From the IMG/VR virus record IMGVR_UViG_3300037493_007233, positions 1 through 64,000 of that record: 64,000 bases of DNA; one strand, written 5' to 3'. The notes under the pieces are model-generated. The model ran no database searches. It was not told where the DNA came from and saw nothing but the letters and a program-made list of their open reading frames with translations. How positions within the stretch are numbered: the first letter of the stretch is position 1; each line of letters opens with the position of its first letter. The position numbers were made by a program, and so were the translations under genes. This DNA is from a virus. Below are positions 1-53,554 of this stretch, piece by piece.

Positions 1-5
1 TCCAG

Positions 6-90
6 CGGAAGGTGAGGGGATCGAACCCTCGCGGCTTTTACACCCTACCTGTTTAGCAAACAGGCCCCTTCACCACTTGGGTAACCTTCC
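6..90 (-). tRNA. tRNA-Ser(GCT)
   Basis: Cloverleaf GGAAGGT..ACCTTCC G, anticodon arm CCTGT-TTGCTAA-ACAGG, long variable arm, GGTTCGATCC T-loop. Confidence 0.95.
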
Positions 91-92
91 TT

Positions 93-168
<76 letters not shown>

Positions 169-173
169 ATTTG

Positions 174-284
174 TAGCCAGGGCAGGAGTTGAACCTGCAG
201 TACCGAATTAGTGCACTTACGGCGTTCGTCCTCTGTATGTTTCAACTTCACTGGACTAAGCGTCTTCCATTCCGCCACCTGACT
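174..284 (-). ncRNA. tRNA-like RNA with intact acceptor, D and T arms but oversized (~42 nt) anticodon loop
   Basis: AGTCAGG/CCTGGCT acceptor, GGCGGAATGGAAGACGC D arm, GCAGG-TTCAACT-CCTGC T arm, TTAGT/ACTAA closing a long insert. Confidence 0.75.
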
Positions 285-288
285 AAAT

Positions 289-360
289 AGTGGAGCGTCA
301 CTTATTTCTAAGTTATCCACTTCGGTTACGTTATCTTTCGATAAGAGGCTTTACCGAGCC
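289..360 (-). ncRNA. candidate small structured RNA with two GAAA-capped hairpins
   Basis: TCGGT..TTATC-GAAA-GATAA..ACCGA and AGTGGA..ACTTA-GAAA-TAAGT..TCCACT between two tRNA-like RNAs. Confidence 0.4.
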
Positions 361-365
361 CAAGG

Positions 366-523
366 TAGTCAGGACAGGATTTGAACCTGTATGTTATACC
401 AAATGGTTAGGGTTATATTGCTCTCTTGCGTCCAAGAGATAATGTAGTAGTTCACATCTACGCCGCACCCTCTGTGTTTGATAGTATAACTCCATTAGCG
501 TCTACCAATTCCGCCACCTGACT
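366..523 (-). ncRNA. tRNA-like RNA with branched ~85 nt domain in place of the anticodon loop
   Basis: AGTCAGG/CCTGACT acceptor, GGCGGAATTGGTAGACGC D arm, ACAGG-TTCAAAT-CCTGT T arm; AATGG/CCATT and GTTATA/TATAAC stems enclose GTAG..CTAC and CTCTTG..CAAGAG hairpins. Confidence 0.75.
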
Positions 524-531
524 ATTTAATT

Positions 532-620
532 GTAAACCAGCTCTTTAGCATTCTACTTCTTGCAAAGAGAAATTGTATCTAACTTAGCCCTGCTCCAGCA
601 ATACGGGTACTAAAGTTTAC
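532..620 (-). ncRNA. candidate structured RNA (multi-stem)
   Basis: Closing GTAAAC/GTTTAC; internal TTAGTACCC..GGGCTAA and CTCTTTGCA..TGCTAAAGAG hairpins. Confidence 0.4.
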
Positions 621-632
621 TGATTTAATTTC

Positions 633-654
633 TTTCCAACATGTCAAAGACCTC
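633..654 (-). promoter_or_regulatory. boxA-like antitermination element
   Basis: GAGGTCTTTGACATGTTGGAAA, nearly repeated at 5446-5467, just downstream of a TATTATTG promoter-like element (671-678). Confidence 0.55.
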
Positions 655-720
655 TTTGTTTTTGATACCTCAATAATAAGCAAGTGTTTCGCTAAGAAAA
701 AATAAAACTTGATTTTTTTG

Positions 721-791
721 CACGGGTACCAGGATTCGAACCCAGATCAAAGGTTTTGGAGACCCTTATTCTACCATTGAACTATACCCGT
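721..791 (-). tRNA. tRNA-Trp(CCA)
   Basis: ACGGGTA/TACCCGT, anticodon loop CTCCAAA, GGTTCGAATCC. Confidence 0.93.
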
Positions 792-796
792 AAATA

Positions 797-930
797 AGGA
801 AAAGAGAAGATGGTTCAGTGGACATCTCTTTTTACAATCGGCATTACTCTGGTTTATACCTGTAAACTCCGATAGTAACGACCGATATAAACTCTTGAGT
901 CATAGTTACTATCATTCCCCGATTAACCTT
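797..930 (-). ncRNA. candidate structured RNA (~135 nt)
   Basis: Nested stems AAGG/CCTT, AATCGG/CCGATT, GATAGTAAC/GTTACTATC, AAAAGAGATG/CATCTTCTCTTTT. Confidence 0.5.
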
Positions 931-933
931 TGC

Positions 934-1005
934 TAACATGTGTGGATTCGAACCACTTAAATCCTGTCTTTAAACAAAATTTCTAACCGATTTAGAATAC
1001 ATGCC
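934..1005 (-). tRNA. atypical or pseudo-tRNA (anticodon loop not 7 nt; TAA/TTA-like)
   Basis: GGCATGT/ACATGTT acceptor, TTCT/AGAA D stem, GTGG-TTCGAAT-CCAC T arm, weak TTTTG/CAGGA stem with 8-nt loop TTTAAAGA. Confidence 0.55.
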
Positions 1006-1022
1006 ATATTTAATTCCACAAC

Positions 1023-1655
1023 TTATTTTCTGCCTAAATACCAACCCTGTGGGAGATCTTCTCCTTTTTTTATTTTTTTATCTTCAGTGCCGTTTGTTAT
1101 CCATCTAGTACCGTATTGTGAATTTTTGTCGCCAGTTCTAAGTGAAGCTTTTTCACTCATTTTTTGTTTGGTTTCTTCTGAATGTTTTAAACCGTACCAG
1201 GAGAAACCTTTGTTTCTCCCATCAGAATAAGATTTTTTTAAAGCAGCTGACATGGATTTCGAATATGATTCTGCCCAGTTTGGATCTTTTCTTAATTCAT
1301 TTAATTTTTGGTGCGCTGCTTCAACACCCGCTGCTTGGAATTTTTTGGAATGCTCTTCAGAATGAAATCCCCCGCCTCCGCCCAACTGTAAATTCATACA
1401 CATAGGATTCTCAAGAAATTGCTCATTCACAATCTCCTTTTCTCTTTCTGCTAGAAGTATTCTATTAGGTAAAAATTCCAATATTTTTTTTTCATGATTT
1501 TCTAAACCATTCTTCCGTATTGAATACCAGAGTTTTTTGCCACTCCCTAGGTACCCATCATCTAGGTTATCAGTGGAATGCATACCTATGTAAAATTTAT
1601 TATCAATTTTACAGGTCGTCATGTAAATATAGTGGTACTTTTTCTCCTTTCTCAC
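1023..1655 (-). CDS. free-standing GIY-YIG (Seg-like) homing endonuclease with NUMOD3
   Basis: YIY..FYIGMH..YLGSG, conserved E and N; KHSEETKQKMS motif; lies between tRNAs. Confidence 0.88.
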   Translation of the reverse strand: MRKEKKYHYIYMTTCKIDNKFYIGMHSTDNLDDGYLGSGKKLWYSIRKNGLENHEKKILEFLPNRILLAEREKEIVNEQFLENPMCMNLQLGGGGGFHSEEHSKKFQAAGVEAAHQKLNELRKDPNWAESYSKSMSAALKKSYSDGRNKGFSWYGLKHSEETKQKMSEKASLRTGDKNSQYGTRWITNGTEDKKIKKGEDLPQGWYLGRK

Positions 1656-1703
1656 TTACTTGTACTTGTTTTGACTATATATCAAAACAGAGGTACGTAA
1701 ATG
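1653..1703 (-). promoter_or_regulatory. start-codon-sequestering hairpin with GATATATA promoter motif at its loop
   Basis: Imperfect inverted repeat (TGTTTTGA/TCAAAACA core) overlapping the GTG start of 1023..1655. Confidence 0.6.
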
Positions 1704-1711
1704 TTGGCAGT

Positions 1712-1792
1712 TGGTAGAGAGGGATTCGAACCCCCGTACTCCGAAGAGAGCAGAGTTACAGTCTGCCGCCTTTAACCACTCGGCCACCTACC
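1712..1792 (-). tRNA. tRNA-Tyr(GTA)
   Basis: GCAGA-CTGTAAC-TCTGC, variable arm CTC-TTCG-GAG, GGTTCGAATCC. Confidence 0.95.
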
Positions 1793-1802
1793 AATTTAAT
1801 TT

Positions 1803-1997
1803 TTAGTCTTCTTTCTTAGCCTTCCTCCACTCGAGATAAAATCCTAATGCAACCAGAATATTCATTCCGAATGAAGCAAGAATTTCGTGGATGTCTTCAT
1901 AGATGTTCATCGTAAGGTGAACGTGTCCGACCATCCAAAAGGGAATGGAAAGATTTGATGCCACCCAAACGATAAAGAAGTGCAAGAATTTTTTCAT
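1803..1997 (-). CDS. small predicted membrane protein
   Basis: Two hydrophobic segments, fills the gap between tRNAs. Confidence 0.6.
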   Translation of the reverse strand: MKKFLHFFIVWVASNLSIPFWMVGHVHLTMNIYEDIHEILASFGMNILVALGFYLEWRKAKKED

Positions 1998-2010
1998 GAC
2001 CTTAGATTTG

Positions 2011-2084
2011 CTCCCCGACCTGGACTCGAACCAGGGACCTACTGATTAACAGTCAGTTGCTCTAACCTACTGAGCTATCGAGGA
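2011..2084 (-). tRNA. tRNA-Asn(GTT)
   Basis: ACTGA-CTGTTAA-TCAGT, GGTTCGAGTCC. Confidence 0.95.
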
Positions 2085-2090
2085 ATATTG

Positions 2091-2164
2091 TGGACCGTAA
2101 CGGATTCGAACCGTTGACCCCCTGCGTGCAAGGCAGGTGCTCTAGCCAACTGAGCTAACAGCCC
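2091..2164 (-). tRNA. tRNA-Ala(TGC)
   Basis: G3:U70 pair, CCTGC-CTTGCAC-GCAGG. Confidence 0.95.
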
Positions 2165-2170
2165 AACTAA

Positions 2171-2344
2171 TTAAATGAAAAGAAAAATATCCCCATGAAT
2201 GTTGTCCCATTCATCAACTTCAGGATCACTGCACTGACAAGAATTTTCTCTCTCTTTGTCAGGATCATAAATTCCTGTTTCTTGGTAAGCATTTGCCATT
2301 TCGATTAATTCTTTGCTTTCCTGTGGGGTTTCATTGTTTTTCAT
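2171..2344 (-). CDS. small acidic hypothetical protein, 57 aa (MKNNETPQES...DIFLFI), not in ORF track
   Basis: Open ATG..TAA frame filling the tRNA-Pro to tRNA-Ala spacer. Confidence 0.5.
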   Translation of the reverse strand: MKNNETPQESKELIEMANAYQETGIYDPDKERENSCQCSDPEVDEWDNIHGDIFLFI

Positions 2345-2374
2345 TTCATGAGGTTTGTTATTTTTGTTTTTTGT

Positions 2375-2450
2375 TGGTCAGGGGGGCCCGGCTCGAACGG
2401 GCGGCCTCCTGGTCCCAAACCAGGCGATCTACCAACTGATCTACACCCTG
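2375..2450 (-). tRNA. tRNA-Pro(TGG), CCA encoded
   Basis: CCTGG-TTTGGGA-CCAGG, ends ACCA. Confidence 0.93.
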
Positions 2451-2641
2451 AATTTTTTAAGTGCCTCTTTAGATTTATCTTCAATCCAATTTAAATCGTA
2501 CTTAAACTCCTTCCAATTATCAAAATCCCTTAATTGTTCTATTACTTCCAAGGGAACTAAAACAAATCCTTCTGGCGCAATACCATCAAATTTATGATAG
2601 CTAGAGTTTAAAATTTTATATTCGACTGGATCTTCGCTCAT
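2441..2641 (-). CDS. hypothetical protein
   Basis: ORF track; phage-like composition; last codons overlap tRNA-Pro. Confidence 0.55.
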   Translation of the reverse strand: MSEDPVEYKILNSSYHKFDGIAPEGFVLVPLEVIEQLRDFDNWKEFKYDLNWIEDKSKEALKKFRV

Positions 2642-2659
2642 ATCTAATTTTTATTTTAG

Positions 2660-2730
2660 TAGCGGGGGAAGGTAACGCTCCTCCTACACACCTTGGCTTA
2701 TGAGGCCAGGCTGCTACTAAGCTCCCCGCG
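2660..2730 (-). tRNA. atypical initiator-type tRNA-Met(CAT)
   Basis: C1:U72 mismatch, CTCATAA loop, shrunken D arm GCT-TAGT-AGC, non-canonical T loop AGCGTTA. Confidence 0.7.
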
Positions 2731-2756
2731 ATATTGAAAAAGTGTTAAAACTTTAG

Positions 2757-2828
2757 TAGCCCGTAGGGGAATCGAACCCCTCTTACCAGGATGAAAACCT
2801 GGCGTCCTAACCGATAGACGAACGGGCC
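2757..2828 (-). tRNA. tRNA-Glu(TTC)
   Basis: CCAGG-TTTTCAT-CCTGG, GGTTCGATTCC. Confidence 0.95.
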
Positions 2829-2833
2829 AAATA

Positions 2834-2887
2834 CAGGATCGCTTTTTTTCGATATTGGAGATCAAATAAATTTGCTGAATCGATCCT
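2834..2887 (-). ncRNA. TTCAGCAA-motif RNA, copy 1 (candidate Y-RNA-like)
   Basis: AGGATCG-ATTCAGCAAA...CGATCCT-G terminal stem. Confidence 0.65.
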
Positions 2888-2894
2888 AAATTTT

Positions 2895-3428
2895 TTATGC
2901 TCTCTTAAGAGTTACTATAGTAAAATATGCTTTTTCATCAAGGCAAAATTCAATATCCTCTGGATATGTGCAATCGTAATGGCTAAGATCAGAATCATAG
3001 ATACCTTTTGCTATGCCTTTTTTAAACTCCATCTCGTCATTTACGTTCACGGGGGAAATGGAGCATTTAAGAATTTTCGGTAGGTATTTAGACTCTAGTA
3101 ACTTATGATGCTCTTGAAGTTCTCTCCATTCTTTTGAATGGTCACTTTTGTCTTGAACGAGCTGGTACCATTTTTCTTGTAGTTCCAGATGTTTCTGATG
3201 CTCTTCAAGTGTTACAGAAATTACTTTTGAAGAATGAATACTATCTACCGCCAGTGTAGGAAGCCAATTTCTAGCAATCTCCTCGCCGACGTAAAATCCA
3301 AGCTGGTATTCCAAGCTCATAGACTTAATACGATCGATCCTTTTTTGCTTTAATCCCTCATCAAGTTCTGGCGATCTATCTTCCTGAAACCGATGAGTAA
3401 GTTTTCTTGCCGTTGTTTCTTTTTTCAT
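2895..3428 (-). CDS. hypothetical protein
   Basis: 177 aa ORF between tRNAs. Confidence 0.7.
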   Translation of the reverse strand: MKKETTARKLTHRFQEDRSPELDEGLKQKRIDRIKSMSLEYQLGFYVGEEIARNWLPTLAVDSIHSSKVISVTLEEHQKHLELQEKWYQLVQDKSDHSKEWRELQEHHKLLESKYLPKILKCSISPVNVNDEMEFKKGIAKGIYDSDLSHYDCTYPEDIEFCLDEKAYFTIVTLKRA

Positions 3429-3430
3429 AA

Positions 3431-3507
3431 TGGCGGCCCGTACGGGACTCGAACCCGTGACCTCCGCCGTGACAGGGCGGCATTGTAACCATCTCTACTA
3501 ACGAGCC
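3431..3507 (-). tRNA. tRNA-Asp(GTC), CCA encoded
   Basis: CCGCC-CTGTCAC-GGCGG, ends GCCA. Confidence 0.95.
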
Positions 3508-3512
3508 AATTT

Positions 3513-3615
3513 AAAAGTCTCCCACGATTCTTTACCCCTTAAGGTAGTCCAGGATTTGAACCTGCCAAAACCGTTTATTTTTTCTTGCCACACCCACTAC
3601 GGACAGGAGATTTTT
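3513..3615 (-). ncRNA. candidate structured RNA containing an isolated T arm
   Basis: Closing AAAATCTCC/GGAGACTTTT, GTAGT/ACTAC, CAGG-TTCAAAT-CCTG. Confidence 0.45.
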
Positions 3616-3619
3616 TTTG

Positions 3620-3693
3620 TGACCCCGATGCGACTCGAACGCATAACCCCCGCATTAAAAGTGCGGTGCTCTAACCAATTGAGCTACGAGGTC
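3620..3693 (-). tRNA. tRNA-Lys(TTT)
   Basis: CCGCA-CTTTTAA-TGCGG. Confidence 0.95.
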
Positions 3694-3741
3694 TGAAGTT
3701 TGTCACTTTCAGTTTTCATAGGACCTTTTTTAATTTGTTTG

Positions 3742-3812
3742 TTACCCCTGATGGATTCGAACCACCATTAACTGGACCAAAACCAGTTGTCCTGCCGTTA
3801 GACGAAAGGGTA
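3742..3812 (-). tRNA. tRNA-Gln(TTG)
   Basis: ACTGG-TTTTGGT-CCAGT, U1-A72. Confidence 0.93.
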
Positions 3813-3822
3813 ATTTAAACTG

Positions 3823-3896
3823 TGGGCCCAGAGGGACTCGAACCCCCGACCAATTGATTATGAGTCAACTGCTCTAACCGACTGAGCTATGGGCCC
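3823..3896 (-). tRNA. tRNA-Ile2/Met(CAT)
   Basis: GGGCCCA acceptor typical of lysidine tRNA-Ile2, GTTGA-CTCATAA-TCAAT. Confidence 0.9.
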
Positions 3897-3902
3897 TAAA
3901 AA

Positions 3903-3959
3903 CGGGATGGTTTTTTCTTTTTTCAAATAAAAGTTTGGGTAATTTGCTGAACCCATCCC
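3903..3959 (-). ncRNA. TTCAGCAA-motif RNA, copy 2
   Basis: GGGATGG-GTTCAGCAAA...CCATCCC-G, compensatory changes relative to copy 1. Confidence 0.65.
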
Positions 3960-3961
3960 TT

Positions 3962-4037
3962 TGGAGCAGCAGACAGGATTTGAACCTGCGACCCCAACCT
4001 TGGCAAGGTTGTGCTCTACCAACTGAGCTACTGCTGC
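3962..4037 (-). tRNA. tRNA-Gly(GCC), CCA encoded
   Basis: CAACC-TTGCCAA-GGTTG, ends TCCA. Confidence 0.95.
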
Positions 4038-4040
4038 ATT

Positions 4041-4222
4041 ATGCCCCTTTTATTCGGTTAAGAAGGCGGGCAAAAGATAAGTTGATCTTAGCTGATCAGG
4101 CCAAACTTATCTCATATTCCTTAGGGTAACGAACCCACGACTGATATCGTTCACCGTCCGAAAAAACGTTCTTTTCTAATTTTATTACACTGCAGAAAAG
4201 AATAAAGATGCCGTGCGTGTGG
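4041..4222 (-). ncRNA. candidate multi-hairpin structured RNA
   Basis: TTCTTTTCT/AGAAAAGAA, ACGA/TCGT, GGGT-TCGTT-ACCC, AGATAAGTT/AACTTATCT, GCCC..GGGC hairpins. Confidence 0.4.
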
Positions 4223-4912
4223 TTAATCCTCGTCGAGATTATTATCTTTTTTAAAAAAAACCATTTTCATTCCGGATTTCCATCCTTCTTGAAGGTATTT
4301 TTCTATTTCCCCTTTTTTTATTCTTTTGTTAATTAGGTCTTCTGTGTTATGAATCCAACAGGTTCCAAATTGTGAATTCAATTCTGCTTTTTGAGCTCTA
4401 GAACTATTTTCACCGATTTTTCTTTTCGTTTCATCGGTGTGTTTTTTTCCTTTAAAAGATTTCATTGCTCCACCTAATAGCCTTTTTGAAATTTCTGGAT
4501 CGGACCAAAGCTTTTTCATAACTTCTGAAGAAACCAATTTCATTTTCGCGATGTAGTTGGGATCTTTCCAAACTTTTTCCGAAGTTTTTTTTGCGCCTTT
4601 GATAAGTTGTTCCTGTGTAAATCCAACATCTCCACCCTTACATAAATTCATACACATAGGATCGGCAAGAAGATCCTCGTTAACTATCTCGATTTCCCGG
4701 TCAGAAAGCTCTTTTCTAGTTTTAAAGAATTCAAGATATTCTATTCTAAAATTTTCTTTTCCGTGGTATTTTATTTTATGCCATAATTTATGTCCGCTTC
4801 CTAGATAGCCATCATCTAGATTATCGGTAGAGTGCATTCCAATGTAATATGACAAGTCAACTATACAAGTTGTTTTATATAAAACATTGAATTTTTTATC
4901 TTTCCTTGACAT
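4223..4912 (-). CDS. free-standing GIY-YIG homing endonuclease with NUMOD3 (paralog of 1023..1655)
   Basis: YYIGMHSTDNLDDGYLGSG nearly identical to the first HEG; GKKHTDETKRKI. Confidence 0.88.
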   Translation of the reverse strand: MSRKDKKFNVLYKTTCIVDLSYYIGMHSTDNLDDGYLGSGHKLWHKIKYHGKENFRIEYLEFFKTRKELSDREIEIVNEDLLADPMCMNLCKGGDVGFTQEQLIKGAKKTSEKVWKDPNYIAKMKLVSSEVMKKLWSDPEISKRLLGGAMKSFKGKKHTDETKRKIGENSSRAQKAELNSQFGTCWIHNTEDLINKRIKKGEIEKYLQEGWKSGMKMVFFKKDNNLDED

Positions 4913-4959
4913 TTTGTACTTCCGTTTATCTTATATATCCAAACGGAAGTACAAAATGT
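4909..4959 (-). promoter_or_regulatory. perfect 19-bp hairpin covering HEG start codon, GATATATA promoter motif in loop
   Basis: ACATTTTGTACTTCCGTTT (4909-4927) / AAACGGAAGTACAAAATGT (4941-4959). Confidence 0.75.
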
Positions 4960-4965
4960 TGAGCG

Positions 4966-5038
4966 AGCGGGAGACGAGATTCGAACTCGCGACCTATAGC
5001 TTGGAAGGCTATAGCTCTACCAACTGAGCTACTCCCGC
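4966..5038 (-). tRNA. tRNA-Gly(TCC)
   Basis: ATAGC-CTTCCAA-GCTAT. Confidence 0.95.
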
Positions 5039-5041
5039 AGG

Positions 5042-5088
5042 TTTGAGTAGACCCGGGCCCGATGGGCCCTTTTTAAGATCTACTCAAA
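5042..5088. repeat. nested inverted repeat / hairpin
   Basis: TTTGAGTAGA..TCTACTCAAA enclosing GGGCCC-GAT-GGGCCC. Confidence 0.55.
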
Positions 5089-5090
5089 GT

Positions 5091-5176
5091 CAGGATAGTG
5101 TTTAACTCCTAGTTTCCTAGGAGTATCGGAATTGAACCGATTGTATCCTAATAGTTTCAATTGCTGAATCTATCCT
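5091..5176 (-). ncRNA. TTCAGCAA-motif RNA, copy 3, with internal T arm and closed acceptor-like hairpin
   Basis: AGGATAG-ATTCAGCAA..ATCGG-TTCAATT-CCGAT-ACTCCTAG-GAAA-CTAGGAGT..CTATCCT-G. Confidence 0.72.
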
Positions 5177-5267
5177 TGGCGGAGGCTGAGGGATTCGAAC
5201 CCCCGGACCGGTTCCCCGGTCTTCAGTTTTCAAGACTGACGCAATCGACCAACTCTGCCAAACCTCC
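5177..5267 (-). tRNA. tRNA-Ser(TGA), CCA encoded
   Basis: TCAGT-CTTGAAA-ACTGA, long variable arm. Confidence 0.95.
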
Positions 5268-5358
5268 GAATTGACTCTAAGCTGATCTGACGGTAAGCTT
5301 TCGAGTACTGTTAAATATTATACGAAAGAAATTAAAAATGTTTCTTTCTTATAATTTG

Positions 5359-5431
5359 AGCCTCCTGACGGACTCGAACCGCCGACCATCTGATTACAAA
5401 TCAGAAGCTCTACCAACTGAGCTAAGGAGGC
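5359..5431 (-). tRNA. tRNA-Thr(TGT)
   Basis: TCTGA-TTTGTAA-TCAGA. Confidence 0.95.
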
Positions 5432-5445
5432 CTCAAGGCCTTTTT

Positions 5446-5493
5446 TTTCCAATACGTCAAAGAACTCCTTTTTTCTTTACTGCCGCAAACGTA
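5446..5493 (-). promoter_or_regulatory. Bacteroidota-type promoter (-7 TACGTTTG) followed by boxA-like element
   Basis: TAnnTTTG at 5486-5493; GAGTTCTTTGACGTATTGGAAA at 5446-5467. Confidence 0.6.
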
Positions 5494-5549
5494 CTGTGTT
5501 TCGGCGTATTGAAAAAACGATTCAATCTTTTTTTAGAAGATTGGATTTG

Positions 5550-5989
5550 TGGAGCTGGCGGGTTTCGAACCCGCGTCCAGCTAGATAAATCCTAAAAACT
5601 TCATTCACAGGCTTAGTTAATTTTTCTAAACTAACAAAATTTACCACCTATTTTTTTGGACTGAGATTGGTGATGATACTCAGCGGAGAACGCTAGCAGC
5701 GATCTAAAGGGTATTGGCTTGCGCCTCAGGGTTACTGATCATTCTCCAAAGCGGTACTGTTAACCCTTATTCCCGCAATTACAACTTTCTGTTCCCAGGC
5801 TGTTGCCGCCCAACGCTTAGGCTACTGCTAGAGCAACTTCAGCTTCCTTTTGAGGAACTAGTCCCGCAAGGATGAAAAATGGATTTTCGCCATTTGTTGT
5901 TTTACATAGGTTATTTAAGAGTTTCCAATGCTAACTCTGCCTGCATCAATTCAAAGAACTTTGACCTCCTGTCGATTCCATTCAGCCCC
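5550..5989 (-). ncRNA. ssrA: tmRNA, tag (A)GENPFFILAGLVPQKEAEVALAVA
   Basis: 5' GGGGCTGAATGGAATCGAC, 3' GACGCGGGTTCGAAACCCGCCAGCTCCA with G3:U; tag frame 5891..5817. Confidence 0.93.
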
Positions 5990-6007
5990 ATTTGTTTTTT
6001 AGAGCCG

Positions 6008-6015
6008 CAAAGATA
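6008..6015 (-). promoter_or_regulatory. Bacteroidota-type -7 element TATCTTTG upstream of tmRNA
   Basis: Matches TAnnTTTG ~20 nt before the tmRNA 5' end. Confidence 0.55.
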
Positions 6016-6049
6016 CCGAATTTGTTTTGCTTAAAAAAACGAATCCAAT

Positions 6050-6081
6050 AAAAAACCCAAATCTTTTTAGGATTTGGGTTT
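6050..6081 (-). terminator. intrinsic terminator, part of putative attenuator
   Basis: AAACCCAAATC-CTAAAAA-GATTTGGGTTT followed by U run. Confidence 0.8.
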
Positions 6082-6108
6082 GTGGCTCTGTAAAATTCTT
6101 TCAAAAAT

Positions 6109-6195
6109 TTAACTAACACAAACCCTGGTCACCTTTGGTGTCCAATTCCCTTTATCCTGCGATGCAAAATAACTGTATGTTTGTGAATGTATCAT
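6109..6195 (-). CDS. putative attenuator leader peptide MIHSQTYSYFASQDKGNWTPKVTRVCVS (28 aa), not in ORF track
   Basis: ATG..TAA right after promoter motifs; its 3' end GGGTTTGTG is complementary to CACAAACCC overlapping the terminator 5' arm. Confidence 0.65.
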   Translation of the reverse strand: MIHSQTYSYFASQDKGNWTPKVTRVCVS

Positions 6196-6269
6196 TTTTG
6201 ATTGAATTTCGAGATTTATATATCAAAGAATCTTTTTGTTTCATACATTTTCTGAAAAAATTCAAAAAA

Positions 6270-6998
6270 TTATTCTATTTTTTCATTTAAAATGTTACTA
6301 GCTTGGTAATTTACGAAAAAATTTGAGTCTATAGTGTCGTATTTGAATTTACGATTAGTCCCAAGACCTAAAATTTCTCTAGCTATATCCTCAGAGTGAA
6401 GCATCCTCCAATCAGAAGGGTTTTGAAAAGACCTTGAATATCTCCACCAGTGCCAAAGATTCCAGCCAGGGTATTGAGATTTGGAAGTGATTTCTTCTGT
6501 TCTGTCTTCTGACATATCAAATCTTCCAATTCTGTAGCTTGCATATGTTCCGTTCAATTCTTCTTCAATGCCTATAAAATTTTCATTGGGGAATATCCTT
6601 CTAAACCGGTCTAGATCAATTTGGGGTACTCCTAAAACCAGGTAGCATTTCCATTTTTTCTGGAACTCCTTTGAAATTTTAACCCAAGATTGACCCTCTA
6701 GCCTATTTTCATAGTGAAGGTCTATCCTAACCAATTTTTCCTCCGGATTATAAGTGTATTCGTCTACTTTTGTCATTCCCTGATCTGGTACAAAAGCCCA
6801 AAGCTCTATGGTATTGTTAGCAAAAAATTGCTCGTGGGAAAGAAACCAATAATCTCTATACAGATTCTCAGCAGCGGTTTTAAAAAGAATCCTGTCACCA
6901 ATTTTTTCTTTGATTAAGACAGTGAATTCTGTATCATCTGCTAAAAAGTCGTAACTGCCTACATTAACGTAGACCCCATAATTAAACTTTACATCCAT
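6270..6998 (-). CDS. degenerate Aah/TibC-like protein, carbamoyltransferase partner 1
   Basis: Paralog of 10421 and 23999 (YNPEEKLVRIDL..W..EFQKKWKC..YASYRIGRF). Confidence 0.6.
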   Translation of the reverse strand: MDVKFNYGVYVNVGSYDFLADDTEFTVLIKEKIGDRILFKTAAENLYRDYWFLSHEQFFANNTIELWAFVPDQGMTKVDEYTYNPEEKLVRIDLHYENRLEGQSWVKISKEFQKKWKCYLVLGVPQIDLDRFRRIFPNENFIGIEEELNGTYASYRIGRFDMSEDRTEEITSKSQYPGWNLWHWWRYSRSFQNPSDWRMLHSEDIAREILGLGTNRKFKYDTIDSNFFVNYQASNILNEKIE

Positions 6999-8581
6999 TC
7001 TTTAAAATATACTTTATCTCCAGCAATAAGAAAATCAATAGTCCCCTTTGAAATATGGGCAAAAGCTTGATCTGGGGTATCTATAATTGGTTCTCCGTGA
7101 CCATTAAAAGAGGTATTCAGGATCAGAGGAATTCCGGTCCTTAAATAATAGGCATTGATCAACTCATACCATCTTGAATTTTTTACCTTATCGACAAATT
7201 GGGGTCTTCCAGTTTTATCGACATTATGTATACAGGCAGGAACTCTATCAACCCATTCATCTTTCACTGTATAACAGATTGTCATGAACTCTGCTGAATA
7301 CGAAGACTTTTCAGCTAGATGAAATACATCCCCTGCTTTTTCTTTTAGTATGGCGGGCGCAAAAGGCATAATCTCGTGTCTTCCCAATCTAAAGTTTAAA
7401 ACGTCGTGGGTTTCCTGCTCTGTTGCTTTAACTATAATTGATCTTGCTCCAAGTGCTCTTGGACCAAACTCAAATCTACCACTGAAAAATGCTCCTATTA
7501 AACCATCGTTCAAAAATTCAGCAACTTCCTCTGGTTTATATGGTTTAGAAAAGAAACCGTGAGAATTTGAGATCATATCAATTTCATCCTCAGAATACTC
7601 TAGCCCCCAAAATAAACTGTCTATTCTTTTTGGTGCTGGCCATTCTCCTAATTCATAAGCCATAGAAATCGCAGATCCCAAAGAAATGCTTTCGTCTCCC
7701 ATAGGGGGAAGTACATAGATCTCTTCTATCGAAGGTATTTCATTTATTTTTTGATTCATTTTTACGTTTGCAAAAATGCCTCCGCCAAAACACATTTGTC
7801 TGGAATGCTCAGGAAAGATTGAAATTAGGTCTTTTACAAATTCAACCATAACTTCCTCGGTAACCTTCTGGAGAGCATAAGCATAGTTTTTTCTTCCCTC
7901 ATCGGATTGAAAAACCCCTTGCTTTTCTAATCCTCTAACCATACTCCAGATTAAAGGGTTGTTACCAGACGGTAAAAAATTTAAAGAACCTTTACCGCCG
8001 TACTTTATGACGCTACTTATTATTCGGTAAATGTTTTCATCGTAAACTCCATTCCCTGACATCCCCATGATTTTACCTTCGTCTTTAACTGGCTTCCATC
8101 CATAGGGGTGACACGAGTTTGCCCAAATCTGACCAAGGCTTGCGCATTCTCCAATATGGAGATTCTTCACCAATTGCATCTGACCATCTTCGCAAAGCCA
8201 AATACTCCCGTAAGTACCATCACCACCACCATCAAAAGTAAAAGTTATAGCTTTTCCCTCGAAGCCACTTGTAAGATAAGCTGCTTTTGCATGGCATTCG
8301 TGGTGATCAAAAGTTTTAACCCCCTTGTCAGGTAAACCTGATTCCCTGATAAATTTTAGAGATATTGGTCTTGCAGTACAAATCCAGTCAGCATCTAATA
8401 TATTAAAACCAATTTTTTCTTGGATCTTATCTTTACAAAGAAAAGGGAAAGATGGCTGGTTGTCTCCAGATTTAATCCTTGTGAATCTTTCCTCCTCAAC
8501 AGCAATTATAATTTCACCGTCATCGATAATTACGATTGATGCATCGTGGGTACCCGAATGATAACCGACTATTCTTGACAT
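6989..8581 (-). CDS. carbamoyltransferase, NodU/CmcH/TobZ family
   Basis: HDAS, EEERFTRIK, HHECHA, DGGGD, EGKIMG, GGIFANVKMN, EFGPRALGARS, LNTSFNGHGEP. Confidence 0.95.
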   Translation of the reverse strand: MSRIVGYHSGTHDASIVIIDDGEIIIAVEEERFTRIKSGDNQPSFPFLCKDKIQEKIGFNILDADWICTARPISLKFIRESGLPDKGVKTFDHHECHAKAAYLTSGFEGKAITFTFDGGGDGTYGSIWLCEDGQMQLVKNLHIGECASLGQIWANSCHPYGWKPVKDEGKIMGMSGNGVYDENIYRIISSVIKYGGKGSLNFLPSGNNPLIWSMVRGLEKQGVFQSDEGRKNYAYALQKVTEEVMVEFVKDLISIFPEHSRQMCFGGGIFANVKMNQKINEIPSIEEIYVLPPMGDESISLGSAISMAYELGEWPAPKRIDSLFWGLEYSEDEIDMISNSHGFFSKPYKPEEVAEFLNDGLIGAFFSGRFEFGPRALGARSIIVKATEQETHDVLNFRLGRHEIMPFAPAILKEKAGDVFHLAEKSSYSAEFMTICYTVKDEWVDRVPACIHNVDKTGRPQFVDKVKNSRWYELINAYYLRTGIPLILNTSFNGHGEPIIDTPDQAFAHISKGTIDFLIAGDKVYFKEWM

Positions 8582-39126: not shown

Positions 39127-39701
39127 GGGTTTTTAGATTTAATGCCTAATAATTTTCCATATCTTGCAACGTTACAAGACCAATATCTAGCTTTCCATTT
39201 AGGTCCTGGCTCTGAGCATCTGTGTCTTGCTCTGAAAGATCTAGACCTAGCAGGATCGTCGTTTCTAATCCTCATTCCAGGTTGCCCAAATCTTACCATT
39301 ACAACCTTTCCCTTATCATTTTTTGTATAGACAGCGAATTTTCTTGGAGCATTTGGAGTTCTGAAAGGTTTGTTTAAATCTACTTTTCTTCCCTGATATT
39401 CAGCTTCGAAAATATCATCATATTCAAATGGGATATCTAAAAGTACTTCTCTACCTTCAAAAGTAGCTTTTTGACCTGCATCGGTGCTTATCAAAAAAAC
39501 ATCATCAAAATCTAGATCGATCTTGTTTTCTGCCCAAAGCTGTCTGGATTCATTGATAAGATCTAACCACGCATCAGATTCGATTCGATAAACGCTCTCC
39601 AATAGGGAAATATTTTCCTCTAAGTGGTAAGCTAATCCCTCGCTTATTTGTGAGGTGCTGAACGAATTGAAGTCATGTATTCTCATACAATTATATATCA
39701 A
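39120..39701 (-). CDS. conserved phage hypothetical protein; start probably 39686
   Basis: KFAVY..RFGQPG..ARHRC..ARYWSC; GATATATA lies between the two Met codons. Confidence 0.7.
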   Translation of the reverse strand: MIYNCMRIHDFNSFSTSQISEGLAYHLEENISLLESVYRIESDAWLDLINESRQLWAENKIDLDFDDVFLISTDAGQKATFEGREVLLDIPFEYDDIFEAEYQGRKVDLNKPFRTPNAPRKFAVYTKNDKGKVVMVRFGQPGMRIRNDDPARSRSFRARHRCSEPGPKWKARYWSCNVARYGKLLGIKSKNPW

Positions 39702-47608: not shown

Positions 47609-47695
47609 ATTTTATTTTTTCTTCCTTCCCCCTGGTAACATTGGGTTTTTTATATATCAAGTTGACTTTGAAACCAGAGGAAAGTTGTGAGGGTT

Positions 47696-49099: not shown

Positions 49100-49154
49100 T
49101 CTATTCTTTATTTAGTTCAAAATCCTGAGGGGTTTGGATTGATATATAAACCAT

Positions 49155-53508: not shown

Positions 53509-53554
53509 ATTTAAATTTTTTAGAGTGTTAGTTTTTTATATATCCACGGAAAAC

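What the first reader, a model, noticed from the sequence alone, without database searches (positions are those of the whole stretch)
6050..6242. Leader-peptide attenuator that may sense depletion of almost any tRNA, upstream of the phage tmRNA/tRNA array
Seen: promoter motifs (6216-6242), then a 28-codon ORF (6195..6109, MIHSQTYSYFASQDKGNWTPKVTRVCVS), then an intrinsic terminator (6050-6081), then the tmRNA and tRNA array. The last codons contain GGGTTTGTG (6117-6125), exactly complementary to CACAAACCC (6076-6084), which overlaps the terminator 5' arm. The two structures are mutually exclusive. The leader has no run of one amino acid. It uses 18 amino acids and 25 distinct codons in 28 positions, including codons read by 15 of the 17 tRNAs visible downstream (all but Glu and Gly-GCC). 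Known: in trp/his attenuation a stalled ribosome frees the antiterminator, and host defences cleave tRNAs. Inference: stalling at any of roughly the first 20 codons turns on read-through, so replacement tRNAs and tmRNA are made on demand. A separate TATCTTTG promoter at 6008 could give basal expression.
Basis: partly seen in the sequence, partly recalled or inferred. Interest (0 to 1): 0.92.

Follow-up and report, generated by a model that had tools for sequence, protein, structure and literature searches.

The report
Leader-ORF attenuator before phage tmRNA/tRNAs
An uncultured giant phage and its relatives place a tiny reading frame, wired into a stop/go RNA switch, in front of their ribosome-rescue RNA (tmRNA) and tRNA genes, so they probably make more of these RNAs when ribosomes read slowly.

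Summary
The 28-codon ORF (6195..6109), the terminator (6081..6053) and the exact 9-nt complement (6125-6117 with 6084-6076) are all present.

Comparative data make it a real, conserved element.
- 31 of 83 upstream regions of related phage tmRNA genes share the layout.
- In 22 of 22 full-length copies an ATG ORF of 26-28 codons ends 9-14 nt after the start of region 2. Across 9 peptide variants there are 0 in-frame stops, against 18 and 17 in the other frames.
- The antiterminator covaries.
This gives a complete 1:2 / 2:3 / 3:4 design.
- In 10 loci the terminator lies 17-18 nt from the tmRNA, with no exact host-type promoter between.
- RNA-library contigs bridge leader, terminator and tmRNA.
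- A terminator-only pattern found 11 further phage loci just upstream of tRNA arrays.

The "senses any tRNA" part is only weakly supported, and translation of the ORF is not shown.

I found nothing in print. This scan noted the same kind of element before on other DNA.

The parts
6216..6226 (-). Promoter-like motif (11 nt), probably the phage's own promoter class. The leader ATG starts 20 nt after its end.
   Evidence: Its core is invariant in 22 of 22 aligned leaders. The window holds 4 exact copies and 10 copies with at most 1 mismatch, against 3.4 expected. Copies lie 4-41 nt before the starts of at least 6 other ORFs. Resemblance to the T4 late promoter is recalled, not tested.
6179..6210 (-). 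5' arm of long helix P1 (region 1): 5'UTR, AUG and codons 1-6.
   Evidence: MFE folds give 24 pairs with 6123..6092. Cognate arm duplexes average -14.4 kcal/mol against -6.8 for arms of other lineages.
6109..6195 (-). Leader ORF: 28 codons plus TAA.
   Evidence: An ORF of 26-28 codons sits at the same place in 22 of 22 full-length relatives. There are 0 in-frame stops against 18 and 17 in the other frames over 9 variants.
6092..6123 (-). 3' arm of helix P1: region 2 from its third base, the stop codon and about 17 nt beyond.
6117..6125 (-). Region 2: 5' strand of the antiterminator, inside the last codons of the ORF.
   Evidence: Exact 9-nt complement of 6084-6076. The helix is kept at 8-12 contiguous pairs in 10 of 10 distinct rows. 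Pairs 7, 8 and 9 show 3, 3 and 4 canonical pair types.
6076..6084 (-). Region 3: 3' strand of the antiterminator. Its last 6 nt are also the start of the terminator 5' arm.
6047..6081 (-). Intrinsic terminator: 11-bp stem, 7-nt loop (6081..6053), then a T run.
   Evidence: dG is -12.5 kcal/mol. Stem pairs 1-10 are kept in 6 of 6 distinct rows, with compensatory changes in L042. It is the consensus structure of alignment A1.
6008..6015 (-). Host-type promoter box (8 nt), 18 nt before the tmRNA 5' end.
   Evidence: An exact box of this form lies 11-19 nt before the tmRNA in 17 of 21 long-spacer loci. It is also present in the leaderless relatives L031, L033 and L034. That this box is the Bacteroidota -7 element is recalled, not tested.
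5547..5989 (-). tmRNA gene.
   Evidence: Rfam RF00023, 82.7 bits. An RNA-library contig ends exactly at 5989 (X17 record 21).
5..5431 (-). tRNA array: 16 ARAGORN genes, two GIY-YIG homing-endonuclease genes between them, cut by the contig end.

Best explanation
This is a ribosome-dependent (leader-peptide) transcription attenuator at the head of a phage tmRNA/tRNA transcription unit.

Proposed course of events:
1. A phage-type promoter (6226-6216) starts an RNA. Its first 120 nt or so hold a 28-codon ORF.
2. With no ribosome, the 5'UTR, AUG and first codons pair with the last codons, the stop and the flank (helix P1). Region 2 is locked away, the terminator 6081-6053 forms and transcription stops.
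3. A ribosome that runs quickly to the stop codon covers region 2, with the same result.
4. A ribosome that is slow or stalled in roughly the first 13-19 codons holds P1 open and leaves region 2 free. Region 2 pairs with region 3 (6084-6076), the terminator cannot form, and RNA polymerase runs on into the tmRNA and tRNA genes.
5. In this phage a host-type promoter (6015-6008) downstream of the terminator adds expression that does not pass the switch.

Shown here: the ORF, three competing helices, their conservation and covariation, and RNA-library contigs that span the terminator.

Inferred: that the ORF is translated, that ribosome position chooses the fold, and that slow decoding (tRNA shortage or damage, or other translation stress) is the signal.
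For: Conservation. 31 of 83 regions upstream of tmRNA genes with this 5' end share the layout.

ORF.
- 22 of 22 full-length copies have an ATG ORF of 26-28 codons. It starts 28-30 nt after the start of the promoter-motif core and stops 9-14 nt after the start of region 2.
- The 9 peptide variants are unlike each other between lineages. The frame relative to region 2 differs between groups A and B.
- In-frame stops are 0, against 18 and 17 in the other frames. P(open) is 0.10-0.21 per variant.

Antiterminator.
- Cognate contiguous length is 8-12 bp (mean 10.3), against 6-8 (mean 6.8) between lineages.
- 4 of 20000 row permutations reach the observed total.
- 104 of 110 cells pair in register, against at most 60 of 110 when slid.

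P1. A long-range helix of 20-28 bp appears in the MFE of 11 of 12 variants, with different sequences. The cognate arm duplex has z of -3.3 or lower against shuffles in 6 of 9 variants.

Interior. The interior hairpins differ between lineages while the ORF stays open. That speaks against a ligand pocket.

Ribosome-footprint folding. With no ribosome, the antiterminator is absent from the MFE in 7 of 9 variants. With the P site at codons 1 to about 13 it is present. With the ribosome near the stop it is absent.

Spacing. In 10 of 31 loci the terminator ends 17-18 nt before the tmRNA, with no exact host-type box between. In 7 of those 10 that box sits upstream of the leader promoter instead.

RNA. 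RNA-library contigs of three studies bridge leader, terminator and tmRNA: X16 5679-6186, X18 5685-6183, X15 5941-6187.

Wider family. A pattern made only of region 2, region 3 and terminator letters found 17 further viral loci. 11 of them lie 11-287 nt upstream of same-strand tRNA genes, each with an ATG ORF crossing region 2.
Against: - No direct evidence that the ORF is translated.
- The three bridging RNA contigs all stop at 6183-6187, which is 6-12 nt downstream of the AUG. One abuts adapter letters, which suggests a real RNA 5' end. If that end is a primary start, the AUG is not on that RNA. It may instead be a processed end.
- RNA libraries can hold DNA.
- In 2 of 9 variants (A3, B1) the antiterminator is in the nascent-RNA MFE even without a ribosome.
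- P1 is weak in B1, B4 and B5, with z of -1.1 to -1.4.
- There is no run of regulatory codons and no amino acid shared by all leaders, so the sensed signal is undefined.
- Some changes follow RNA rules rather than codon rules. In the group A hairpin the loop letters vary while stem letters at third codon positions stay fixed.
- The variants are related, so the number of independent covariation events is small, about 3 to 5 lineages.
- A one-mismatch host-type box lies inside the terminator 3' arm (my reading of the sequences printed). The short-spacer class may therefore still have a weak promoter of its own.
- Whether transcription and translation are coupled in the (inferred) Bacteroidota host is unknown.
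Confidence: 0.6

Rival explanations
1. The three-helix RNA switch is real, but something other than leader translation sets it. Candidates are a phage or host RNA-binding or antitermination protein, RNA processing (for example cleavage of the long P1 duplex), temperature or a ligand. The ORF would then be tolerated or serve another purpose.
For: - The covariation evidence concerns RNA helices only.
- Several substitutions obey RNA rules rather than codon rules.
- A discrete RNA end at about 6186, just before the inner P1 helix, hints at processing.
- P1 is a 20-28 bp duplex.
Against: - The ORF is kept open in all 9 variants despite indels and a frame change relative to region 2. In-frame stops are 0, against 18 and 17.
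- The stop codon always falls within or just after region 2.
- The interior differs in sequence and fold between lineages, so there is no conserved pocket.
- No Rfam family matches 6040-6240 at E up to 1.
Confidence: 0.2
2. It is an independent small gene (a micropeptide or small RNA) with its own promoter and terminator that merely lies upstream of the tmRNA. The tmRNA and tRNAs are driven by their own promoter, and read-through is incidental.
For: - A host-type box lies between terminator and tmRNA in the window and in 17 of 21 long-spacer loci.
- Relatives L031, L033, L034 and L040 have a tmRNA with no leader.
- Within groups the peptides share motifs.
Against: - Region 2:3 pairing competes with the terminator and covaries. 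A plain gene end does not need that.
- In 10 loci the terminator ends 17-18 nt before the tmRNA with no exact box between.
- RNA-library contigs bridge the terminator into the tmRNA.
- The same layout sits 11-287 nt before tRNA genes in 11 other viral loci found without using any tRNA letters.
- Peptides are not conserved between lineages.
Confidence: 0.12
3. It is a chance ORF and a chance complement next to the ordinary terminator of the upstream operon.
For: A single 9-nt complement has a chance of about 0.2% per terminator. That is not negligible over a 64-kb window read after the fact.
Against: All the comparative results argue against it: 31 loci, ORF maintenance, covariation, and the wider family.
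Confidence: 0.02

Closest known systems
Leader-peptide transcription attenuators of enterobacterial amino-acid operons (trpL, hisL, leuL, pheL, thrL, ilv leaders). Textbook knowledge, recalled. The pheL abstract (PMC3082878) was seen only in the listing.
   Same: A short ORF in the leader. A 1:2 / 2:3 / 3:4 set of competing helices ending in an intrinsic terminator. The predicted outcome depends on where the ribosome sits.
   Different: - No run of codons for one amino acid.
- The ORF spans from region 1 to region 2, with its stop inside or just after region 2.
- The start codon itself is inside helix 1:2.
- The gated genes are RNA genes (tmRNA, tRNAs) of a phage, not biosynthetic enzymes.
- The host is probably Bacteroidota.
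Ribosome-stalling attenuators without codon runs: rli80/hflXr of Listeria (PMC6310831, passages read) and the whiB7 uORF of mycobacteria (PMC10274678, abstract read).
   Same: A small ORF plus alternative terminator and antiterminator folds. General ribosome stalling, not one amino acid, gives read-through. hflXr encodes a factor that recycles blocked ribosomes, so the logic (stalled ribosomes induce a rescue function) is the same. Inhibition of tRNA and tRNA-synthetase genes activates whiB7.
   Different: Those are cellular genes that gate protein-coding genes. hflXr uses a 14-aa ORF with an RLR arrest motif. The whiB7 uORF is enriched in alanine. Neither feature is seen here. No sequence relation was tested or is expected.
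The trn tRNA operon of Anabaena, silent until translation is impaired (PMC8421152 and PMC10272220, abstracts seen in the listing).
   Same: An accessory array of tRNA genes that is switched on under translational stress.
   Different: Per the abstract of PMC10272220, control there is by a transcriptional repressor (TrcR), not by a leader ORF and terminator. It is a megaplasmid of a cyanobacterium, not a phage.
arfA control by trans-translation in E. coli (PMC10107115, abstract seen in the listing).
   Same: Feedback between ribosome-rescue capacity and expression of a rescue factor.
   Different: It works through a non-stop mRNA and tagging of the product, not through transcription attenuation. 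It controls the backup factor, not the tmRNA.

Membership tests
Leader-peptide (ribosome-mediated) transcription attenuator | Short ORF in the 5' leader of the regulated transcript | tested here: met
   28 codons at 6195..6109. Kept at 26-28 codons in 22 of 22 full-length relatives. 0 in-frame stops against 18 and 17.
Leader-peptide (ribosome-mediated) transcription attenuator | Intrinsic terminator between the leader ORF and the regulated genes | tested here: met
   6081..6053 plus a T run. Conserved in all 31 loci.
Leader-peptide (ribosome-mediated) transcription attenuator | Antiterminator that shares bases with the terminator and is supported by covariation | tested here: met
   6125-6117 with 6084-6076. 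8-12 contiguous pairs in 10 of 10 distinct rows, 3-4 pair types at pairs 7-9, permutation 4 of 20000.
Leader-peptide (ribosome-mediated) transcription attenuator | Anti-antiterminator (1:2) that a translating ribosome would disrupt | tested here: met
   Helix P1, 6210..6179 with 6123..6092. Present in the MFE of 11 of 12 variants. The arms co-vary, clearly in 6 of 9 variants and weakly in 3.
Leader-peptide (ribosome-mediated) transcription attenuator | Translation of the leader ORF, and dependence of read-through on it | not testable with these tools
   Only RNA-library contigs were available. They bridge the terminator but stop 6-12 nt downstream of the AUG.
Amino-acid-specific attenuators (trp/his type) | Run or enrichment of codons for the amino acid that is sensed | tested here: not met
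   No run. 18 amino acids in 28 codons. No residue is shared by all 9 variants.
   Window: 25 distinct codons, P 0.021 against windows of the phage's own genes and 0.056 against shuffles. A2 and A3: P 0.008 and 0.001. B2 to B6: P 0.30-0.68. Repeated triplets: 31 of 243 in frame, against 44 and 39 of 234 in the other frames.
Known Rfam cis-regulatory RNAs (T-box, riboswitches, known leaders) | Match to a curated covariance model | tested here: not met
   cmscan of 1-8000 at E up to 1 lists no hit between 5990 and 6300.

The most novel reading that the evidence does not exclude
The leader is a general gauge of decoding speed. A ribosome slowed at any of its first 13-19 codons, for want of any of many tRNAs (for example after attack by a host anticodon nuclease) or through other translation stress, switches on late-promoter transcription of the phage's own tmRNA and replacement tRNAs. 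That would be a feedback loop in which stalled ribosomes call up both ribosome rescue and fresh tRNAs. It would be shared by a wide family of giant phages that use the same switch in front of tRNA arrays.
Probability: 0.3. Interest if true: 0.9.

Novelty: new variant of a known kind. Interest (0 to 1): 0.78.

Why it matters
Leader-peptide attenuation is a classic control of amino-acid operons and of some resistance genes. Here the same logic appears to gate non-coding RNA genes of a virus: a ribosome-rescue RNA and a set of tRNAs.

If the mechanism holds, these phages measure the host's decoding capacity with a test ORF and supply translation parts on demand. That bears on why phages carry tRNAs and tmRNAs, and on counter-defence against tRNA-cleaving host systems.

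The element is small, conserved and rich in covariation. It also occurs in two natural layouts, with and without a bypass promoter. This makes the question directly testable with reporters, Term-seq and Ribo-seq.

My searches found no published account of an attenuator in front of a tmRNA or a phage tRNA array. This scan's own earlier notes describe the same kind of element on other DNA.

Tried and rejected
- Close relatives were not found by blastn of 5400-7000 against GenBank phages (no match). The neighbouring 242-aa protein found none in viral contigs (none confirmed).
- The carbamoyltransferase gave 24 distant loci. Their tRNAs lie in another arrangement, so they served only to reach the tmRNA genes of four related records.
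- MAFFT alignments A1 and A2 put region 2 of groups A and B out of register by one column. RNAalifold on A1 therefore recovered only the terminator and a small hairpin. I made anchored, ungapped comparisons in scripts instead and did not use the count of structure pairs or a covariance model.
- Sigma-70-type promoter scan: 21 sites found, 22.1 expected, none at the leader. It was not informative for this host type.
- Of the 52 tmRNA-upstream regions without the layout, 46 had at least 200 nt of upstream sequence. Only 3 of those had any terminator-like hairpin within 150 nt. On inspection they are gene-end terminators or follow another tRNA-like 3' end.
- Six of the 17 pattern hits (L123, L124, L127, L130, L132, L134) have no tRNA downstream and look like chance or ordinary terminators. 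L123 and L127 were left out of the Rfam scan to stay under its size limit.
- RNA runs: none of the four laid runs has any cover over 6202-6500. Depths are per contig and were not used to compare leader and tmRNA levels. No DNA run was laid beside the RNA runs.
- I did not test whether each relative's leader codons match its own tRNA set. Most arrays are cut by contig ends, the window's included.
- Supplementary files of the papers were not opened. None was needed for the claims made.
- One search had an index error, corrected.
Full report
OBSERVATION. On the minus strand the window reads, in order:
- the end of a 242-aa gene (6998..6270);
- an 11-nt promoter-like motif (6226-6216);
- an ATG at 6195, followed by 28 codons and TAA at 6111-6109;
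- a terminator-like hairpin at 6081..6053 (11-bp stem, 7-nt loop, T run);
- an 8-nt host-type promoter box (6015-6008);
- a tmRNA (5989..5547, Rfam 82.7 bits);
- a tRNA array.

The last codons hold a 9-nt stretch (6125-6117) that is the exact complement of 6084-6076, and 6084-6076 shares 6 nt with the terminator's 5' arm. Such a complement arose in 432 of 200000 shuffles of the upstream 119 nt. No Rfam family matches the leader at E up to 1.

CONTEXT. The window is the first 64 kb of a 73.6-kb virus record estimated 26% complete, so the array is cut by the contig end. Neighbouring genes are carbamoyltransferases, a methyltransferase-domain protein and GIY-YIG homing endonucleases. The 8-nt box upstream of the tmRNA has the form I recall as the Bacteroidota -7 promoter element. 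That host assignment is an inference from memory and was not tested.

RELATIVES.
- GenBank phages hold nothing close.
- A carbamoyltransferase search gave 24 distant viral loci. In 4 of the 5 records I searched there is a tmRNA over the Rfam cut-off.
- Of those four, only the closest (L032, the same contig as L042) has a leader like the window's. L031 and L033 have a divergent gene upstream, and in L034 a gene ends right at the promoter box.
- A pattern for the tmRNA 5' end then gave 4 viral and 78 metagenome loci.
- Of the 83 upstream regions, window included, 31 carry the same layout.
- Of the other 52, 46 had at least 200 nt upstream, and only 3 had any terminator-like hairpin within 150 nt. 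None resembles a leader.

THE ORF IS MAINTAINED.
- In 22 of 22 full-length copies an ATG ORF of 26-28 codons starts 28-30 nt after the start of the promoter-motif core and stops 9-14 nt after the start of region 2. L052's copy is the second frame listed there. L060 has an additional upstream in-frame ATG inside the motif.
- There are 9 peptide variants. They are unalike between lineages. In group A (the window's) the ORF reads region 2 in a different frame from group B.
- Over the 9 variants the ORF frame has 0 stops, against 18 and 17 in the other two frames. An open frame of this length has probability 0.10-0.21 per variant under shuffling.
- Within group A a short nucleotide motif near codons 4-6 is kept through compensating indels and is read in different frames. 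In a hairpin around codons 18-23 the loop letters vary while stem letters stay, including third codon positions.
- So selection seems to act on an open frame and on RNA pairing, not on the peptide.

THREE COMPETING HELICES.
(i) Terminator. Stem pairs 1-10 are kept in 6 of 6 distinct rows, with double changes in L042. It is the consensus fold of alignment A1.

(ii) Antiterminator (region 2 with region 3).
- In an anchored comparison of 10 distinct rows, pairs 1-8 are kept in 10 of 10 and pair 9 in 9 of 10.
- Pairs 7, 8 and 9 show 3, 3 and 4 canonical pair types.
- Cognate helices are 8-12 bp (mean 10.3), against 6-8 (mean 6.8) when region 2 of one lineage meets region 3 of another.
- 4 of 20000 permutations reach the observed total.
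- 104 of 110 cells pair in register, against at most 60 of 110 when slid by 1-3.

- In the window, 6210..6179 (5'UTR, AUG, codons 1-6) pairs with 6123..6092 (region 2 from its third base, the stop codon and the flank), 24 pairs in all.
- A long-range helix of 20-28 bp of this kind is in the MFE of 11 of 12 variants, though the arm sequences differ between lineages.
- With the invariant first six bases of region 2 left out, cognate arm duplexes average -14.4 kcal/mol, against -6.8 for arms of different lineages.
- 6 of 9 variants have z of -3.3 or lower against shuffled arms. B1, B4 and B5 are weak, at z -1.1 to -1.4.
- The related sequences come from only about 3-5 independent lineages, so these numbers overstate the count of independent events.

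HOW THE RIBOSOME COULD CHOOSE. I folded the nascent RNA ending at region 3 with a 28-nt footprint held unpaired.
- With no ribosome, the antiterminator is absent from the MFE in 7 of 9 variants. It is present in A3 and B1.
- With the P site at codons 1 to about 13 it is present in nearly all variants.
- With the ribosome within about 8 codons of the stop it is absent in all.
- At codons 14-19 the result varies. The model allows pairing around a ribosome, which is sterically doubtful.

This is a thermodynamic sketch, not a kinetic one.

PROMOTERS AND TWO LAYOUTS.
- The 11-nt motif occurs 4 times exactly and 10 times with at most one mismatch in the window, against 3.4 expected. It lies 4-41 nt before the starts of at least 6 other ORFs, among them both homing-endonuclease genes. 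I read it as the phage's own promoter class. Its likeness to the T4 late promoter is recalled, not tested.
- In 21 of the 31 loci, 56-64 nt separate the terminator from the tmRNA. 17 of these hold an exact host-type box 11-19 nt before the tmRNA.
- In the other 10 loci only 17-18 nt separate them, with no exact box. In 7 of those 10 an exact box lies 29-40 nt upstream of the phage-type motif instead.
- In that second layout all transcription from those promoters must pass the terminator to reach the tmRNA.
- Caveat: a one-mismatch version of the box lies inside the terminator's 3' arm in these sequences (my reading).

RNA.
- Six metatranscriptome runs hold about half of the words of 5500-6400.
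- Contigs of three of the four runs I laid, from three studies, bridge leader, terminator, host-type box and tmRNA: X16 record 14 (5679-6186), X18 record 29 (5685-6183) and X15 record 8 (5941-6187).
- X17 record 21 runs 5450-5989 and so ends at the predicted mature tmRNA 5' end.
- Contigs cannot prove a single transcript, and RNA libraries can contain DNA.
- The three bridging contigs all stop at 6183-6187, 6-12 nt downstream of the AUG and just before the inner part of P1. One abuts adapter letters.
- This may be a processed end or a library effect. If it is a primary start, that RNA lacks the start codon. I count it against the model as a weak hint.

A WIDER FAMILY.
- A gapped pattern made only of region 2, region 3 and the terminator 3' arm found 19 viral stretches, 17 of them new.
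- 11 of the 17 lie 11-287 nt upstream of same-strand tRNA genes. Each has an ATG ORF crossing region 2 (23-44 codons; 73 in L121 if counted from its farthest ATG). 9 of the 11 have 8-12 contiguous antiterminator pairs, beyond the 6 that the pattern imposes.
- No tmRNA reached the Rfam cut-off in the 15 loci scanned.
- The other 6 hits have no tRNA behind them.
- So the switch is linked to tRNA arrays as well as to tmRNA genes.

THE 'ANY tRNA' CLAIM.
- Against 20000 random 28-codon windows of the phage's own long ORFs, the window's leader is more diverse: distinct codons P 0.021, amino acids P 0.018, phage tRNAs used P 0.037. It also uses rarer codons (P 0.014).
- Against stop-free shuffles of itself, P is 0.056 for the window, 0.008 for A2 and 0.001 for A3. 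For B1 it is 0.06, and for B2 to B6 it is 0.30-0.68.
- Repeated triplets number 31 of 243 in frame, against 44 and 39 of 234 in the other frames.
- Diversity is therefore raised in the window's lineage but is not a family-wide trait. The claim stays open.

READING. The best explanation is a ribosome-dependent transcription attenuator that opens when the leader is decoded slowly (confidence 0.6). The rivals are:
- the same RNA switch set by another factor or by processing (0.2);
- an independent small gene with incidental read-through (0.12);
- chance (0.02).

KNOWN AND NEW.
- The design is that of the trp/his-type attenuators (recalled), but without a codon run and in front of RNA genes of a phage.
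- In logic it is nearest to stalling-sensing attenuators such as rli80/hflXr, where a 14-aa ORF gates a ribosome-recycling factor (PMC6310831, passages read). It is also near the whiB7 uORF, which responds to loss of many amino acids, tRNAs and synthetases (PMC10274678, abstract read).
- An accessory tRNA operon induced by translational stress is known in Anabaena. There a repressor controls it (PMC8421152 and PMC10272220, abstracts in the listing).
- Huge phages are known to carry tmRNAs (PMC7162821, passages read).
- My four searches found no account of an attenuator before a tmRNA or a phage tRNA array.
- Earlier notes of this scan describe the same kind of element on other DNA, including tmRNA/tRNA blocks of Bacteroidota giant phages. 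They are unchecked AI notes and I did not use them as evidence.

Noticed in passing
window 5547-5989 (-): ARAGORN does not call this tmRNA, while Rfam scores it at 82.7 bits. The central pseudoknot region aligns poorly (low posterior probabilities), so the tmRNA is divergent. RNA-library contigs end at 5989, and adapter letters abut about 5544. Both fit the mature ends.
   Followed up: partly
window 1675-1685, 4931-4941, 39691-39701, 47650-47660, 49139-49149, 53536-53546: The 11-nt promoter-like motif recurs 4-41 nt upstream of other ORF starts. These include both GIY-YIG homing-endonuclease genes that sit inside the tRNA array. In two cases the ATG is only 4-5 nt after the motif, which suggests leaderless mRNAs.
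   Followed up: partly
L121, L122, L125, L126, L128, L129, L131, L133, L135, L136, L137: The same kind of leader ORF, antiterminator and terminator lies 11-287 nt upstream of tRNA arrays in other viral contigs, with no tmRNA at the Rfam cut-off. ORFs are 23-44 codons. In several the ATG follows a TATA-rich motif by 4-6 nt.
   Followed up: partly
31 loci (window, L039-L119): The host-type promoter box appears to have swapped sides. It lies between terminator and tmRNA in 17 of 21 long-spacer loci. It lies upstream of the leader promoter in 7 of 10 short-spacer loci. L041, L086 and L114 have both.
   Followed up: yes
window 6183-6187: RNA-library contigs of three studies share a common end here, one abutting adapter letters. 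It lies 1-2 nt before the inner helix of P1. It could be a processing site or an RNA start.
   Followed up: no
leader ORFs of the window, L041, L077, L085, L060, L105, L109, L122, L128, L131, L135: A Trp codon within a shared 5-nt motif recurs in most leaders at different codon positions. L042, L052, L121 and L126 lack it. Its role is unknown.
   Followed up: no
window 174-284 and 366-523 (-): Rfam tRNA hits of 31.7 and 36.2 bits span 111 and 158 nt, far longer than a tRNA. ARAGORN does not call them. They are tRNA-like RNAs with large inserts.
   Followed up: no
L031, L033, L034, L040: Related phage tmRNA genes with no leader or terminator. A host-type box sits directly upstream (L031, L033, L034) or there is another arrangement (L040). 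The attenuator is therefore clade-specific, not universal for phage tmRNAs.
   Followed up: partly
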